Of a stretch of 64,000 nt of DNA, positions 18,499 to 45,396 are shown piece by piece. The stretch spans positions 1,847-65,846 of the forward strand of contig CASEQD010000002.1 in the NCBI GenBank assembly GCA_949289935.1, read 5' to 3'. Within the stretch, counting starts at the first letter, position 1; the number at the start of each line of letters is the position of its first letter. The notes under the pieces were generated by a model. The model searched no databases, was not told the DNA's origin, and saw nothing but the letters and a program-made list of their open reading frames with translations. This DNA comes from an uncultured Pseudomonadota bacterium (GTDB taxonomy: Bacteria > Pseudomonadota > Alphaproteobacteria > RF32 > CAG-239). The position numbers and the translations under genes were made by a program.

Positions 18499-19368
18499 CT
18501 AAAATTCAAAGTAGTTCCATACATATACACCTGTATCAAAAAGGTCTATGGGAATTTCTTGTAATTCCGATGTTTCAAATTTTAACTGAGATTCTGGAGC
18601 ATAATAATCCATTCTTATGCTGTATCCCCATAATACATTTGCGGCGCCTGATACGGCAGCGTTGGTGCTGAATGTCCGGAAATTTTGCCATTCGAAACCA
18701 TCAAAGGAGGTCAGTCCGGCTCTGGTAAGTTTGTGTGCTATTTCCGTTAAATTGTTTATTAGAGACTTTGCTACGCCGCCGGGTATGCCGATTTCCCGAA
18801 AATTTGAATTGAAATTGTTTTCAGCTTCGGTTTTTGTGAGTTTTGGCAGATTATTGTAATAATTGTTGGTTAAAACATAGGAATTAACGGATGATCTACC
18901 GATATAACCGGTTACGGCATATCCGCCGCCGCCGGGTTTTGTGTAGGCAACCACGCCTTTGGGGGTTTTTGAACTGTCAAAGTTGTAGGAGCAGGTATCG
19001 TCGGTGTAATAAATGTATCCGATTTGACATTTGGGAAGAGTTTTACTGCAGGTTCCGTTGTTCCATTCATATCCGGCAGCGCAGTTGCAGAAAGTGTATT
19101 TTCCATTGCAGGCTCCGGTTAACGGCTTTTTTTGATTGGTTCCGGTGCAAGTGTATTTGTATGACGTACCGCATTTTTCTTCCGGGCACGCCCAATACTC
19201 GCCGAACGGGCATTTCAGGCAATTTTCTTTGTTGGTTGTTTCTGTATAACCCAAAGCAGAACAGTCTTTATTTTCCACGCACTGGGCAAAAGCGGAAATT
19301 GGGAACATAAAAGAAGAAGCCAGCAGGGTAAAATATACCTTTTTGCCGGCGGAAAGAATCACACGCAT
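18499..19368 (-). CDS. secreted Cys-rich protein, paralog B (family N-terminal module with a divergent C-terminal region)
   Basis: MRVILSAGKKVYFTLLASSFMFPISAFA-QCVENKDCSALGY...KCPFGEYWACPEE. An AFA-Q signal-peptidase site is present, and the C-terminus ends ...VWNYFEF. Confidence 0.6.
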   Translation of the reverse strand: MRVILSAGKKVYFTLLASSFMFPISAFAQCVENKDCSALGYTETTNKENCLKCPFGEYWACPEEKCGTSYKYTCTGTNQKKPLTGACNGKYTFCNCAAGYEWNNGTCSKTLPKCQIGYIYYTDDTCSYNFDSSKTPKGVVAYTKPGGGGYAVTGYIGRSSVNSYVLTNNYYNNLPKLTKTEAENNFNSNFREIGIPGGVAKSLINNLTEIAHKLTRAGLTSFDGFEWQNFRTFSTNAAVSGAANVLWGYSIRMDYYAPESQLKFETSELQEIPIDLFDTGVYVWNYFEF

Positions 19369-19451
19369 TTCATCCTCCTCCTCCACACTTTATCATCACT
19401 GATTTTAGTGTAACATGAATTTTCTAATTGTTCAATCATTATTTTCATGCA
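19177..19451 (-). repeat. conserved 5' module of the secreted-protein family, copy B
   Basis: The reverse complement aligns with 10861-11145 and with the reverse complement of 44735-45002. It includes TTGAAC-17-TACACT and the signal-peptide codons. Confidence 0.8.
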
Positions 19452-19498
19452 GAAATGAAAAAAATGAAGAGGATTTTTTTTGATTCATACCCCACCCG

Positions 19499-19518
19499 CC
19501 TCCCCTACTCAGGGGAGG
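19499..19518. repeat. perfect hairpin CCTCCCCT-ACTC-AGGGGAGG
   Basis: 8-bp stem with a 4-nt loop. The identical hairpin occurs at 45155-45174. Half-sites TACTCAGGGGAGG recur at 19533-19545 and 19663-19675. Confidence 0.85.
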
Positions 19519-19579
19519 AAAAATGGAGAGGATACTCAGGGGAGGGATATAAGGAGTAAAGCAAAGCTGCTTCGGTCAA

Positions 19580-19636
19580 CTGAATTGTAACGATTGTTTC
19601 CTTAGGCTGCCGCCTGTTCACAATCTAACAATTCAG
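19580..19636. other. long imperfect hairpin in an intergenic region
   Basis: cTGAATTGT (19580-19588) pairs with ACAATTCAg (19628-19636). GATTGT (19592-19597) pairs with ACAATC (19620-19625). The loop is 22 nt. Confidence 0.6.
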
Positions 19637-19701
19637 ACTCTGTCGTTGAAAAACAATTGATGTACTCAGGGGAGGAAACGATTGTTGCTTTTTGATTTTT
19701 C

Positions 19702-43464: not shown

Positions 43465-43971
43465 ATGAACAAAAAAAATTCTTCAGGCATTGTTTTTAAT
43501 TCAGGAGATTTTGTTGTCTATCCGGCTCACGGGGTCGGCAAGGTGGCTGATATTTCCAAACAGAAAATTGCCGGTTCGGAGCTGGAACTGATTGTGGTCA
43601 ATTTTGACAAGGATAAAATGACGCTGCGAATTCCGATGGCCAAAGCAAATACAATCGGTTTAAGGAAAATTTCCGAAGCGGGAACAATGAATGAGGCTTT
43701 GAGTGTTTTGAAAGGAAAGCCGAAGGTTAAAAAAATTATGTGGTCCCGCCGGGCGCAGGAATATGAGAATAAAATCAATTCGGGGAATCCGGTGGCAATT
43801 GCCGAAGTTGTCAGAGATTTATACCGGAATGAAAATCTGGCGGAACAGTCTTACAGCGAGCGTCAGATTTATGAGCAGGCTCTGGGGCGTCTGGCCAGCG
43901 AATATGCCGTTTGCAACAGTATCAGTACGGATGAAGCGACGAAGCAGTTGGTTGATATTCTGGCAAAGTGA
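43465..43971 (+). CDS. carD: CarD family transcriptional regulator
   Basis: FNSGDFVVYPAHGVGKV... CarD/TRCF RNAP-interacting domain, 168 aa. Confidence 0.85.
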   Translation: MNKKNSSGIVFNSGDFVVYPAHGVGKVADISKQKIAGSELELIVVNFDKDKMTLRIPMAKANTIGLRKISEAGTMNEALSVLKGKPKVKKIMWSRRAQEYENKINSGNPVAIAEVVRDLYRNENLAEQSYSERQIYEQALGRLASEYAVCNSISTDEATKQLVDILAK

Positions 43972-43994: not shown

Positions 43995-44022
43995 AAAAGG
44001 CCTTGGATTTCCAAGGCCTTTT
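43995..44022. terminator. bidirectional intrinsic terminator
   Basis: AAAAGGCCTTGG-ATTT-CCAAGGCCTTTT, perfect, between convergent genes. Confidence 0.7.
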
Positions 44023-44107
44023 GAAGATTAAAGTTCTATTAGTGTAGATAAAAAATTCACAGGTTTTTTCTGCTTCCGGTTTTATTTCAGGGAGGGAATA
44101 TAAGGAG

Positions 44108-44926
44108 CTAAAACTTGATTATAGGGCGAATGCTACTGTAAGTGTGTTTGCCGTCGGCATAGAAGTTGGAATTGCTCAAAGACAAGCGCCAAGCCCATCC
44201 AGTTGTGGAGCCATATTCGGATGATGACCACCAGGAATTGTTGCCGATGTTTTCTTTGTTGATTCTGGTTAAACTTTGATCAATGGCTGTTTTATTTTGG
44301 TTAATACTGTTTAACACACCGCCGGCCGGCAAACACCATTTACCCTTTGTTTCCGGCATGGTTGATGGGGCATAGTTGTATACCTCCCAGAATGCCGGAT
44401 AATAATTTGAAGCATAGTCTCCGTATTGTTTGTAACTGTAATCAATAACTGTTTTCGTATTCTCACAGCTGTCAAAATCGTTTGTTGGCTCACTGCTGTA
44501 ATTTGGTAAATCAGGAATTTTGACAGATTCTGTTGACCAGTAGAAATTTCCCAGTCCTTCTAGCGCCAGAGCCTGGCCGCAGCCGTTTTCGCCGATATAA
44601 ACAACAATGCCGACCGGCTCAACTCCGCTGACACGGTAGTCCGAACAGCTGCCATCAATATTTAAGATTTGCCCGATTTTGCAGTTTTTGGCATAACCGG
44701 TACATTGGCCGAGAATGGCTCCTTCAGGTTTTGCAGGTTCGGGACATGCCCAATATTCACCGAACGGACATTTAATACCGTTATCACATGCTGTTGTCGA
44801 ATCGTAGCCTAATGCCGCACAGTTTTCATTTTCCACACACTGGGCAAAAGCGGAAATGGGGAACATAAAAGAAGAAGCCAGCAAGGTAAAATATATCCTT
44901 TTGCCGGCGGAAAGAATCACACGCAT
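44108..44926 (-). CDS. secreted Cys-rich DUF1566/Lcl-C-like protein, paralog C (intact)
   Basis: MRVILSAGKRIYFTLLASSFMFPISAFA-QCVENENCAALGYDSTTACDNGIKCPFGEYWACPEP..., GIVVYIGENGCGQALALEGLG..YWS, KGKWCLPAGGVLNSI, WWSSSEYGSTTGWAW...IRPIIKF. It is colinear with paralog A. Confidence 0.6.
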   Translation of the reverse strand: MRVILSAGKRIYFTLLASSFMFPISAFAQCVENENCAALGYDSTTACDNGIKCPFGEYWACPEPAKPEGAILGQCTGYAKNCKIGQILNIDGSCSDYRVSGVEPVGIVVYIGENGCGQALALEGLGNFYWSTESVKIPDLPNYSSEPTNDFDSCENTKTVIDYSYKQYGDYASNYYPAFWEVYNYAPSTMPETKGKWCLPAGGVLNSINQNKTAIDQSLTRINKENIGNNSWWSSSEYGSTTGWAWRLSLSNSNFYADGKHTYSSIRPIIKF

Positions 44927-45002
44927 TTCATCCTCCACACTTTATTACACTGATTTTAGTGTAGCATGGATTTTGTTATATGTAAATCATTAATTTCATA
45001 CA
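44735..45002 (-). repeat. conserved 5' module of the secreted-protein family, copy C
   Basis: The reverse complement aligns with 10861-11145. The promoter is TTTACA-17-TACACT, followed by a GGAGG RBS and signal-peptide codons almost identical to copies A and B. Confidence 0.8.
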
Positions 45003-45043
45003 AAGGTGAAAAAAATGAAGAGGATTTTTTTGAATCATACCCC

Positions 45044-45151
45044 TCTTCAATTCCGACTAATTCTTTTGGAGGGAGTGGTACTACTCCCTCCAAAAGGAAA
45101 GTCTCATTGCGTCTCCTTGCCAAAAGCAACGTTAGTTGCTTTTAGCTTCGG
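45044..45151. repeat. 108-bp hairpin-rich insertion relative to the homologous locus at 19455-19500 (MITE- or palindromic-element-like)
   Basis: The flanks CATACCCC and CCGCCTCCCCTACTCAGGGGAGG are contiguous at locus B (one intervening nt). The insert holds a perfect 13-bp-stem hairpin (45064-45095) and a perfect 9-bp-stem hairpin (45122-45143). Confidence 0.6.
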
Positions 45152-45154
45152 CCG

Positions 45155-45174
45155 CCTCCCCTACTCAGGGGAGG
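45155..45174. repeat. perfect hairpin CCTCCCCT-ACTC-AGGGGAGG (second copy)
   Basis: Identical to 19499-19518. A related CCTAGGGGAGGAG follows at about 45192-45204. Confidence 0.85.
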
Positions 45175-45396
45175 AGAAAGTGTGGAGCCCTACCTAGGGG
45201 AGGAGACAAATCAGATAATTTGTTTTTACGGATGTTTTATCCGAGAAATCCCCGGGATGAGCCCGGGGATGACGATATTGATGATTGTTTTTTTGGGACA
45301 GGATGTTTTCTTTTCCTTCCCTATTTTTGACTGTCCAATTTTTCGGGGAACAGTTCAGCGTTTTTCGGGGGATGTCCTGAAAACAAACAGTTTGAA

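What the first reader, a model, noticed from the sequence alone, without database searches (positions are those of the whole stretch)
44087..45178. Paralog C cassette is bracketed by TCAGGG(G)AGG direct repeats and looks circularly permuted relative to locus B
At locus B the order on the + strand is: paralog (reverse), shared promoter region, sequence X (ATGAAAAAAATGAAGAGGATTTTTTT..CATACCCC), hairpin CCTCCCCTACTCAGGGGAGG, then TCAGGGGAGGGATATAAGGAGTAAA (19536-19559). At locus C the near-identical TCAGGGAGGGAATATAAGGAG (44087-44107) lies on the other side and abuts the paralog stop codon. Sequence X and the hairpin with TCAGGGGAGG (45166-45175) lie on the promoter side. The ~1.08-kb unit (paralog, promoter and X) is thus flanked by direct copies of a ~10-nt core. 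The two loci relate to each other as different linearisations of one circle. That is what integration of a circular cassette through alternative copies of an att-like core would produce. No recombinase gene is present in this window.
Basis: inference. Interest (0 to 1): 0.6.

Follow-up and report, generated by a model that had tools for sequence, protein, structure and literature searches.

The report
Triplex-type repeat arrays flank lectin gene
The "direct repeats" around this secreted lectin-like gene are copies of a genome-wide, triplex-forming repeat that sits between members of a roughly 100-copy gene family; the gene is a real lineage-specific insertion, but its edges do not lie at those repeats, so they are not integration sites.

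Summary
The att-site and circle reading fails. TCAGGG(G)AGG is one arm of a 25-30-nt tandem unit (Y7-TGAGTA). There are 194 units in this 1.72-Mb genome against 1 in a reversed-sequence control. Arrays end in a three-block element, Y7-TGAGTA-R7-loop-mirror R7. 45 of the 46 hairpins with a short second loop are perfect and co-vary in three stem types. This is the architecture of E. coli TMECO/BoxC intrastrand-triplex repeats. Arrays fill the gap between tandem family genes and start right after the upstream stop codon. Any one-gene window therefore carries units on both sides. The 3' unit of paralog C is followed by a decayed head of the usual next module, so it is a truncated array. In the three closest species the carD/lipoprotein gap is about 66-75 bp. 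Here it holds a 1,371-bp segment whose edges lie 61 nt and 187 nt outside the outermost units, flanked by TTTGAA. In the sister species a different family gene occupies the same spot as a strain-level 1,326-bp indel flanked by TTTAA, with no such cores. Gene gain and loss is real; the core is not the junction.

The parts
43465..43971 (+). carD (CarD/CdnL-type transcription factor), the conserved left neighbour
   Evidence: Pfam CarD_C and CarD_TRCF_RID. 85-93% identical in same-genus genomes.
43999..44022 (.). carD terminator hairpin GGCCTTGGATTTCCAAGGCC followed by TTTT. It is conserved in the empty-site relatives.
   Evidence: The same hairpin is present in G001/G008 just before the lipoprotein stop codon.
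44020..44025 (.). Left copy of TTTGAA at the insertion junction
   Evidence: Read directly from the sequence and compared with the empty sites. The right copy is at 45391-45396.
44026..45396 (-). 1,371-bp lineage-specific segment: paralog C plus repeat-mosaic flanks, counting one TTTGAA copy
   Evidence: It is absent from G001, G008, G011 and two metagenome contigs, where the carD stop to lipoprotein stop distance is about 66-75 bp. The same filled left junction is seen in a second sample.
44047..44077 (-). Degenerate head of the common ~110-140-nt hairpin module (GGAAGCAGAAAAAACCTGTGAATTTTTTATC)
   Evidence: About 30 of 37 aligned columns match the canonical module head. Alignment score 31 against 13.7 +/- 2.1 for shuffles; 0 of 2000 shuffles reach it. 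Weak blastn hits to module copies.
44087..44107 (-). 3' repeat unit (gene strand: CTCCTTATATT-CCCTCCC-TGA) abutting the stop codon. Its loop is truncated (TGAAAT instead of TGAGTA).
44108..44926 (-). Paralog C: a 272-aa secreted, Cys-rich, Lcl_C/DUF1566-like protein (ATG at 44926, stop at 44108-44110)
   Evidence: ORF list. Weak Lcl_C match, below the Pfam cut-off. About 100 paralogs by tblastn and 106 ORF pieces by hmmsearch.
44927..45007 (-). Shared start module: SD GGAGGA, short leader, -10 TACACT, -35 TTTACA
   Evidence: Read directly from the sequence. 85-92% identical upstream of dozens of paralogs.
45008..45031 (-).
45032..45046 (-). 3' end of the triplex-type element: third block AGAGGGG followed by TATGATTC on the gene strand
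45047..45154 (-). 108-nt two-hairpin element occupying loop 2 of the triplex-type element
   Evidence: Absent at locus B. The same element sits in the same position at 8 or more other loci.
45155..45174 (-). Blocks 1 and 2 of the element: CCTCCCC-TGAGTA-GGGGAGG, a perfect hairpin
45175..45203 (-). Two further upstream tandem units (GGGCTCCACACTTTCT-CCTCCCC and CCTCCCCTAGGTA)
45204..45390 (.). 187-nt right flank of the insert: a mosaic of pieces of other dispersed repeats, plus a CCCCGGG hairpin
   Evidence: Sensitive blastn against the genome.
45391..45396 (.). Right copy of TTTGAA, immediately before the lipoprotein stop codon
45397..46017 (-). 206-aa lipoprotein-like gene, the conserved right neighbour
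18499..19371 (-). Paralog B
19482..19518 (-). Complete triplex-type element at locus B: CCTCCCC-TGAGTA-GGGGAGG-CG-GGTGGGG-TATGAATC on the gene strand
19519..19686 (-). Locus B upstream array: two units (including the CTCCTTATAT unit at 19536-19559), a ~110-nt module, and an outermost unit at 19663-19675. The edge of lineage-specific DNA is at about 19686.

Best explanation
TCAGGG(G)AGG is not a crossover core. It is one arm of a short dispersed repeat. On the gene strand the unit reads [about 15 variable nt]-[pyrimidine 7-mer CCTCCCC, CCCTCCC or CTCCCCC]-TGAGTA. Units are tandemly repeated every 25-30 nt. Each array ends in a three-block element, Y7-TGAGTA-R7-(2-3 nt)-mirror R7-TATGA. This is the class II purine-motif intrastrand-triplex architecture of E. 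coli TMECO/BoxC.

In this species the repeat has expanded sharply and sits mostly just upstream of the shared promoter module of a roughly 100-member secreted lectin-like (Lcl_C/DUF1566-like) gene family, in the same orientation as the gene. Where family genes are in tandem the array begins right after the upstream gene's stop codon. A single gene taken with its surroundings therefore carries units on both sides and looks like a circular permutation of another copy.

The unit abutting paralog C's stop codon is the first unit of such a downstream array, truncated after the decayed head of the next module. Paralog C with these repeat-mosaic flanks (1,371 bp) is a lineage-specific insertion between the carD terminator and the lipoprotein stop codon.

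Shown: anatomy, covariation, genome-wide association, empty sites and junction positions. Inferred: the segment arrived, or is lost, by illegitimate or short-homology recombination (5-6-bp direct repeats at the junctions), and the repeats act, if at all, as instability or recombination-prone DNA and not as att sites.
For: - Abundance. There are 90 exact TCAGGGGAGG copies and 22 exact 20-nt hairpins. There are 194 Y7-TGAG[TG]A units against 1 in the reversed-sequence control.
- Association. 122 of the 194 units lie within 600 nt of a family ORF, a zone covering 10% of the genome. A further 47 lie at contig ends. 91 units are co-oriented with the gene and 31 are opposite.
- Spacing between units is 25-30 nt.
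- Three-block covariation. Of 58 hairpins, 46 have a short loop 2 followed by TATGA, and 45 of those 46 show perfect Watson-Crick pairing plus a mirror third block. The third block allows A or T opposite the A:T pair. The three matched stem types are CCTCCCC/GGGGAGG/GG[AT]GGGG, CCCTCCC/GGGAGGG/GGG[AT]GGG and CTCCCCC/GGGGGAG/GAGGGGG.
- Same layout as TMECO, including the TTA second loop (PMC4666352).
- Tandem family genes with the order stop-units-element-promoter-gene occur on contigs C51, C13, C53 and C25. Three other genes also carry units on both sides.
- The 3' flank of C continues into a decayed module head (0 of 2000 shuffles reach the score).
- The site is empty in G001, G008 and G011. 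The insert edges lie 61 and 187 nt outside the outermost units.
- In the sister species a 1,326-bp indel carrying a different paralog, flanked by TTTAA and without cores, sits at the same site.
- No whole-cassette duplicate at 93% identity or more exists in the genome. High-identity blocks are limited to start modules and repeat modules.
Against: - At locus B the outer edge of lineage-specific DNA lies only about 10 nt beyond a core, so repeats can sit at an insert's edge.
- Both B and C are insertions, and the repeat burst and the insertions are both specific to this lineage. A causal link between the repeats and gene mobility is therefore not excluded.
- No same-species empty allele for C was found.
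- The own-lineage pre-insertion sequence is inferred from other species.
- Triplex formation itself is not tested.
Confidence: 0.75

Rival explanations
1. First reader's model. A circular [paralog-promoter-X] cassette integrates by site-specific recombination through alternative copies of a ~10-nt att-like core, giving circularly permuted insertions bracketed by the core.
For: Direct copies of the core do bracket the gene. Paralog C is a lineage-specific insertion. The motif is tied to family genes. The genome encodes three tyrosine-recombinase matches and six serine-recombinase (Resolvase-domain) matches, four of them in full-length ORFs.
Against: Insert edges are 61 and 187 nt outside the outermost units. 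The 3' unit is part of a truncated standard array. The core co-varies as hairpin plus mirror block, not as a conserved crossover site; three different stem sequences exist. The sister-species cassette at the same site has no core. 35 of 63 assessable family genes have no unit nearby. No recombinase is adjacent. Two of the three tyrosine-recombinase matches are about 300-aa ORFs that I read as XerC/XerD-like on length and sequence alone.
Confidence: 0.05
2. Family genes are true mobile single-gene cassettes. An unidentified trans-acting enzyme inserts them with a 5-6-bp target-site duplication next to stop codons or terminators. The triplex-type units are passengers.
For: TTTAA flanks the 1,326-bp strain-level indel, whose flanking DNA is 99.3-99.7% identical between alleles. 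TTTGAA lies at both junctions of paralog C. Three different family genes occupy the lipoprotein 3' intergenic region in three lineages. The empty junction is shared by two sister species, which favours insertion over deletion.
Against: The two inserts share no terminal sequences or inverted repeats. The identical sister-species protein is always found at this one locus in the 10 places shown, out of 18 contigs carrying it. A 5-bp repeat equally fits deletion by microhomology. With about 100 copies per genome, repeated occupancy of one intergenic site could be chance. That intergenic space is only about 10 nt, so selection alone constrains where an insertion can survive.
Confidence: 0.2
3. RecA-dependent loop-out. 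Homologous recombination between the co-oriented arrays flanking a gene excises a gene-plus-array circle, which re-enters any other array.
For: Co-oriented arrays lie on both sides of some genes. TMECO loci are reported to be more variable between E. coli strains than control sites (PMC4666352).
Against: The carD/lipoprotein and rplI/rbfA sites have no array in relatives that could serve as a target. No recent whole-cassette copies exist.
Confidence: 0.07
4. The units are operator sites for a regulator that co-ordinately controls the family. Their presence 3' of genes is incidental.
For: Oriented arrays with regular 25-30-nt spacing lie about 120-420 nt upstream of starts.
Against: The repeat is almost species-specific: 58 hairpins here, 5 in the closest relative sampled, and 0-1 in the other 59 family genomes, while the gene family is widespread. 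The three co-varying stem types argue for structure, not for a fixed binding word. 25 units lie far from any family gene.
Confidence: 0.08

Closest known systems
TMECO / BoxC / PIT elements: intrastrand triplex motifs of E. coli and other Proteobacteria
   Same: Three consecutive blocks: a C-rich block, a loop, a G-rich block that is Watson-Crick complementary to the first, a short second loop (TTA or a CG-type loop), and a G/T-containing mirror block. Many intergenic copies. Copy number differs sharply between close relatives. Located in variable regions.
   Different: The stems are 7 nt, not 9. The first loop is the fixed word TGAGTA. The element terminates tandem arrays of 25-30-nt half-units. 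It is strongly oriented and tied to the promoter module of one gene family. The host is an uncultured gut alphaproteobacterium. Loop 2 can carry a 108-nt hairpin element.
Integron gene cassettes (IntI, attI, attC)
   Same: Single-gene units that are gained and lost at a fixed chromosomal spot. A repeat lies right after the stop codon.
   Different: No IntI or attI nearby. The repeat has no attC-type R''-L''/L'-R' structure or GTTRRRY core. Each gene has its own promoter. Junctions are not at the repeat.
REP/BIME elements with RAYT transposases; pneumococcal BOX modular repeats (from my own knowledge, not tested against examples)
   Same: Short GC-rich palindromic units in intergenic clusters. 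Modular composition with tandemly repeated sub-units. They break assemblies.
   Different: No Y1/RAYT gene in the genome. The units are direct, not alternating. A third mirror block is present.
Variable surface-protein families with shared 5' modules (for example mycoplasma vsp/vlp-type loci; from my own knowledge)
   Same: A large family of secreted proteins shares a near-identical promoter and signal-peptide module on diverged bodies.
   Different: There is no adjacent site-specific recombinase or invertible promoter. The genes are dispersed singly among housekeeping genes.

Membership tests
Integron cassette / attC | Cassette boundaries coincide with the recombination core of the repeat | tested here: not met
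   Insert edges lie 61 nt and 187 nt outside the outermost units. The sister-species cassette has no such repeat.
Integron cassette / attC | Adjacent IntI-type tyrosine recombinase and attI | tested here: not met
   There are only three PF00589 matches, on contigs C3, C8 and C9. None is on the window. The two ~300-aa ORFs look XerC/XerD-like on length and sequence alone; the third is a 574-aa ORF. The IntI-specific insertion was not examined.
Integron cassette / attC | Promoterless genes, all co-oriented behind Pc | tested here: not met
   Each family gene carries its own -35/-10 and SD module.
TMECO/BoxC-type intrastrand triplex motif | C-rich block, Watson-Crick complementary G-rich block and mirror G(A/T)-rich block of equal length with short loops | tested here: met
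   45 of the 46 hairpins with a short loop 2 are perfect, in three co-varying stem types. At locus C, block 3 is AGAGGGG (one mismatch) and loop 2 holds a 108-nt element.
TMECO/BoxC-type intrastrand triplex motif | Sequence consensus of TMECO itself (9-nt stems, of the CCCTCTCCC type) | tested here: not met
   The stems are 7 nt and of different sequence (one search compared with Table 1 of PMC4666352). The element works like TMECO but is not a member by descent.
TMECO/BoxC-type intrastrand triplex motif | Forms a stable triplex (CD, NMR, DMS footprint) | not testable with these tools
   Needs oligonucleotide biophysics.
REP/REPIN with RAYT | A Y1 (IS200-like) RAYT transposase in the genome | tested here: not met
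   PF01797 gives no match in the genome. The control search gave matches in 6 of 14 control genomes.
Transposon/MITE-like mobile cassette | Conserved terminal (inverted) repeats plus a fixed-length target-site duplication | tested here: inconclusive
   5-bp (TTTAA) and 6-bp (TTTGAA) direct repeats lie at two junction pairs. The inserts share no terminal sequences.
Lcl_C / DUF1566 lectin-like family (the cargo gene) | Pfam PF07603 match above the gathering score | tested here: not met
   Paralog C scores 18.2 bits against a cut-off of 34.9. Paralog B has no match. The relationship rests on weak similarity and on earlier notes.

The most novel reading that the evidence does not exclude
The secreted lectin-like genes of these gut Alphaproteobacteria are mobile single-gene cassettes. 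An unidentified mechanism inserts them with 5-6-bp target duplications, immediately beside the stop codons or terminators of housekeeping genes. In this species a triplex-forming repeat has co-expanded with the family and promotes their recombination and turnover.
Probability: 0.15. Interest if true: 0.75.

Novelty: new variant of a known kind. Interest (0 to 1): 0.4.

Why it matters
The finding as written, a new att-core cassette system, does not hold up, and that prevents a wrong annotation.

What remains is still useful in three ways. First, it is a clear case outside the Enterobacteria and Cyanobacteria highlighted in the cited survey of a triplex-type (TMECO-like) repeat. Here it is organised in oriented tandem arrays and tied to one hypervariable surface-protein family. 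That offers a natural system to ask whether such DNA structures drive local recombination. Second, there is a clean strain-level presence/absence polymorphism of a family gene flanked by a 5-bp repeat, at the same intergenic spot that is occupied by a different paralog here. This makes the mode of gain and loss of these abundant gut-bacterial lectin-like genes directly testable with long reads. Third, the repeats explain much of the fragmentation of this assembly.

Tried and rejected
- Rfam scan of the window: no family at gathering score.
- Y1/HUH transposase search: none found.
- Tyrosine and serine recombinases: present, but none next to loci B or C. On contig C8 an XerC-like gene ends about 400 nt upstream of a 110-nt module and family-gene promoter; I judged this coincidental.
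- Donor copy for paralog C or for the sister-species cassette: none found. The best matches are about 80% identical.
- Recent whole-cassette duplicates in the genome: none at 93% identity or more.
- Same-species empty allele. The metagenome scan returned no same-species contigs. Exact-protein look-ups gave one extra sample with the same filled left junction and nothing for the lipoprotein or for paralog C.
- An orthology reading of paralog C and the sister-species gene was rejected. They are 40% identical, while that gene is 53-59% identical to other paralogs of this genome.
- A 'hot spot' claim for the site was toned down. With about 100 copies per genome, three occupancies among roughly 15 lineages may be chance.
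Full report
**1. Observation**

The window is C2:1847-65846 of a 1.72-Mb, 67-contig, 43.6% GC genome. Earlier notes of this scan call it an uncultured gut alphaproteobacterium. The metagenome contigs recovered here are mostly labelled human gut.

- TCAGGGAGGGAATATAAGGAG lies at 44087-44107. It directly abuts the stop codon (CTA on the + strand, 44108-44110) of paralog C, a 272-aa secreted Cys-rich protein on the minus strand.
- The near-identical TCAGGGGAGGGATATAAGGAG starts at 19536, on the promoter side of paralog B.
- The 20-nt hairpin CCTCCCCTACTCAGGGGAGG is at 19499-19518 and 45155-45174.
- TCAGGGGAGG occurs 4 times in the window against 0.03 expected.

The facts hold. However, locus C also has two more units beyond the hairpin (45175-45203), as B does. 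C therefore has an extra unit at its 3' end, not a relocated one.

**2. What the core is**

Genome-wide there are 90 exact TCAGGGGAGG copies, 70 copies of ACTCAGGGGAGG and 22 exact hairpins.

On the gene strand the repeat is a unit of [about 15 variable nt][pyrimidine 7-mer][TGAGTA].
- With the definition Y7 (at least 5 C) followed by TGAG[TG]A, there are 194 units against 1 in the reversed-sequence control.
- Successive units are 25-30 nt apart, or twice that.

Arrays end in a perfect hairpin followed by a third block. There are 58 Y7-TGAGTA-R7 hairpins.
- 46 of them have a second loop of 4 nt or less and are then followed by TATGA.
- In 45 of those 46, block 2 is the exact complement of block 1 and block 3 is the exact mirror of block 2, with A or T allowed opposite the A:T pair.
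- Three stem types occur, each with its own matching partners: CCTCCCC/GGGGAGG/GG[AT]GGGG, CCCTCCC/GGGAGGG/GGG[AT]GGG and CTCCCCC/GGGGGAG/GAGGGGG.

This is the layout of class II purine-motif intrastrand triplex elements. E. coli TMECO/BoxC reads CCCTCTCCC-loop-GGGAGAGGG-TTA or CCG-GGGTGAGGG (PMC4666352). The TTA second loop recurs here. I re-derived it independently from all copies.

At locus B the element is complete (19482-19518). At locus C a 108-nt two-hairpin element (45047-45154) sits in loop 2, and block 3 (AGAGGGG, 45040-45046 on the + strand as CCCCTCT) follows it. Eight or more other loci have the same arrangement.

**3. Association with the gene family**

tblastn and an HMM find about 100 paralogs (106 ORF pieces) of the secreted Lcl_C/DUF1566-like protein.
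- 122 of the 194 units lie within 600 nt of a family ORF. That zone covers 10% of the genome.
- A further 47 units sit within 600 nt of a contig end, so the repeats break the assembly.
- 25 units lie elsewhere.
- 91 units are co-oriented with the gene and 31 are opposite. Of the co-oriented ones, 67 are upstream (mostly 120-420 nt) and 24 are downstream (18-155 nt after the stop).

Of 63 assessable full-length genes, 23 have upstream units, 8 have downstream units, 3 have both, and 35 have none.

The repeat is almost species-specific. There are 58 hairpins here and 5 in the closest relative sampled (G001). There are none in G011 and G006, and 0-1 in the 57 other genomes of the family that were sampled. 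The gene family itself is widespread.

**4. Why a single gene looks 'bracketed' and 'permuted'**

Where family genes are in tandem, the order is stop codon, short spacer, units, three-block element, optional modules, A/T tract, promoter, next gene. This is seen on contigs C51, C13, C53 and C25. A window cut from such a series carries units at both ends and is formally a circular permutation of another window. No circle is needed to explain this.

The CTCCTTATAT-type unit shared by B and C is a sub-family of about 7 copies. Four of them, including B's, follow the tail of a ~110-nt module.

Beyond the 3' unit of C, the sequence continues into a decayed copy of the head of that module. About 30 of 37 aligned columns match; the score is 31 against 13.7 +/- 2.1 for shuffles, and 0 of 2000 shuffles reach it. 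The 3' unit is therefore the start of a truncated standard array.

**5. Is paralog C an inserted cassette, and where are its edges?**

In G001, G008 and G011 (same genus, carD 92-93% identical) the convergent carD and lipoprotein genes are about 66-75 bp apart. They share the carD terminator hairpin. More distant genus members have apaG there. In this genome apaG lies on contig C1 next to another family gene.

Here the gap is about 1.43 kb. Homology to the empty sites ends at ...GGCCTTTTG (44023) and resumes at TTAATATTC (45397). TTTGAA is present at both junctions (44020-25 and 45391-96). The lineage-specific segment is 1,371 bp.

Its left edge is 61 nt beyond the 3' unit. Its right edge is 187 nt beyond the outermost upstream unit. 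That right flank is a mosaic of other dispersed repeat pieces. The cores are therefore internal to the insert, not at its junctions. A second public sample carries the same filled left junction.

Locus B is also lineage-specific. The rplI-rbfA gap is 120-170 bp in G011, G010 and G006. There, the outer edge lies about 10 nt beyond a unit.

**6. A clean polymorphism at the same spot in the sister species**

The three metagenome contigs that are 93% identical in carD are L071, L072 and L073.
- L072 and L073 are empty like G001. L071 carries a family gene in the same place and orientation.
- The flanks of L071 are 99.3-99.7% identical to those of L072 and L073. The difference is one 1,326-bp block flanked by a 5-bp direct repeat, TTTAA.
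- The left TTTAA supplies the stop codon of the family gene (...IEF*). The right TTTAA contains the stop codon of the lipoprotein gene.
- That insert has no TCAGGGGAGG-type unit. It has its own terminator, promoter and long leader.
- Its protein is 40% identical to paralog C but 53-59% identical to other paralogs here, so the two occupants are not orthologues.
- The identical protein occurs on 18 contigs from many samples. In the 10 places shown it is always at this locus.
- G013 has yet another family gene, on the other strand, between apaG and the lipoprotein gene.

Family genes are thus gained or lost as single-gene blocks, with 5-6-bp direct repeats at the junctions, independently of the core. 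Whether this is insertion with target duplication or deletion by microhomology is open. The empty junction is shared by G001 and G008, which mildly favours insertion.

With about 100 copies per genome, and only about 10 nt of neutral space at this site, recurrence may reflect chance plus selection and not targeting.

**7. Enzymes and recent mobility**

- The genome has three PF00589 (tyrosine recombinase) matches: two ORFs of about 300 aa that look XerC/XerD-like on length and sequence alone, and one 574-aa ORF.
- It has six Resolvase-domain matches: two ORFs of about 550 aa, two of about 200 aa, and two short or partial ones.
- It has no Y1/HUH transposase.
- None of these genes is next to B or C. 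The nearest, a large serine recombinase, lies about 28 kb beyond the window's end on the same contig.
- No pair of family loci shares 93% identity or more over a whole gene. High-identity blocks are confined to the start module and the repeat modules.
- No donor copy of either cassette was found.

**8. Verdict**

The att-core and circular-cassette mechanism is not supported. The best reading is a triplex-type repeat array that belongs to the intergenic architecture of the family, with a truncated array at the 3' end of a gene that is itself a lineage-specific insertion.

Noticed in passing
L071:4563-5893 compared with L072/L073:4563-4567 (sister-species metagenome contigs): A strain-level 1,326-bp presence/absence polymorphism of a 325-aa family gene, flanked by a 5-bp TTTAA repeat. 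The repeat provides the stop codons of both the family gene and the lipoprotein gene. Both alleles are common in public samples.
   Followed up: yes
window 45047-45154, and 8 or more other loci (for example C53:8936-9040, C13:29021-29170): The 108-nt two-hairpin element always sits in loop 2 of the triplex-type element, between block 2 and the mirror block. It does not split a block. Copies of this element also occur in G001, G008, G010, G013 and G004, which lack or nearly lack the triplex-type repeat.
   Followed up: partly
window 19560-19662, and many loci (C49, C5, C21, C1, C8, C36 and others): A ~100-110-nt module (AATTGTTTTTCAACGACAGAGTCTGAATTG...CAGTTGACCGAAGCAGC) is 98-99% identical between copies. 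That is far more conserved than the genes it accompanies, which suggests recent spread or gene conversion.
   Followed up: no
genome contig C1:5747-7177: apaG lies between carD and the lipoprotein gene in more distant genus members. In this genome it sits elsewhere, directly followed by another family gene carrying the shared start module.
   Followed up: partly
many family genes, for example C5:109594, C64:1569, C51 and C13:15057: About a third of family genes share a conserved 3' flank, TAACCCGCCGCTTTT, directly after the stop codon and before the first repeat unit. Paralog C lacks this flank. Earlier notes in this scan link the family's C-termini to a DGR, so this conserved post-stop sequence may deserve a look as a homing-related signal.
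   Followed up: no
window 45325-45360, and C25:11705-11738, C10:66-98, C1:66-99, C16:509-541, C19, C32: Another small dispersed repeat with 12-nt terminal inverted repeats (TGAACTGTCCCC...GGGGACAGTTCA), often at contig ends. A partial copy lies in the right flank of the paralog C insert.
   Followed up: no
L043:2488-3294 (G013): A third, different family gene (+ strand, EGF-like Cys repeats) is inserted between apaG and the lipoprotein gene in another species of the genus.
   Followed up: partly
genome contig C8:6701-8400: An XerC-like tyrosine recombinase gene ends about 400 nt upstream of a 110-nt module and family-gene promoter. I judged this coincidental but did not test it.
   Followed up: no
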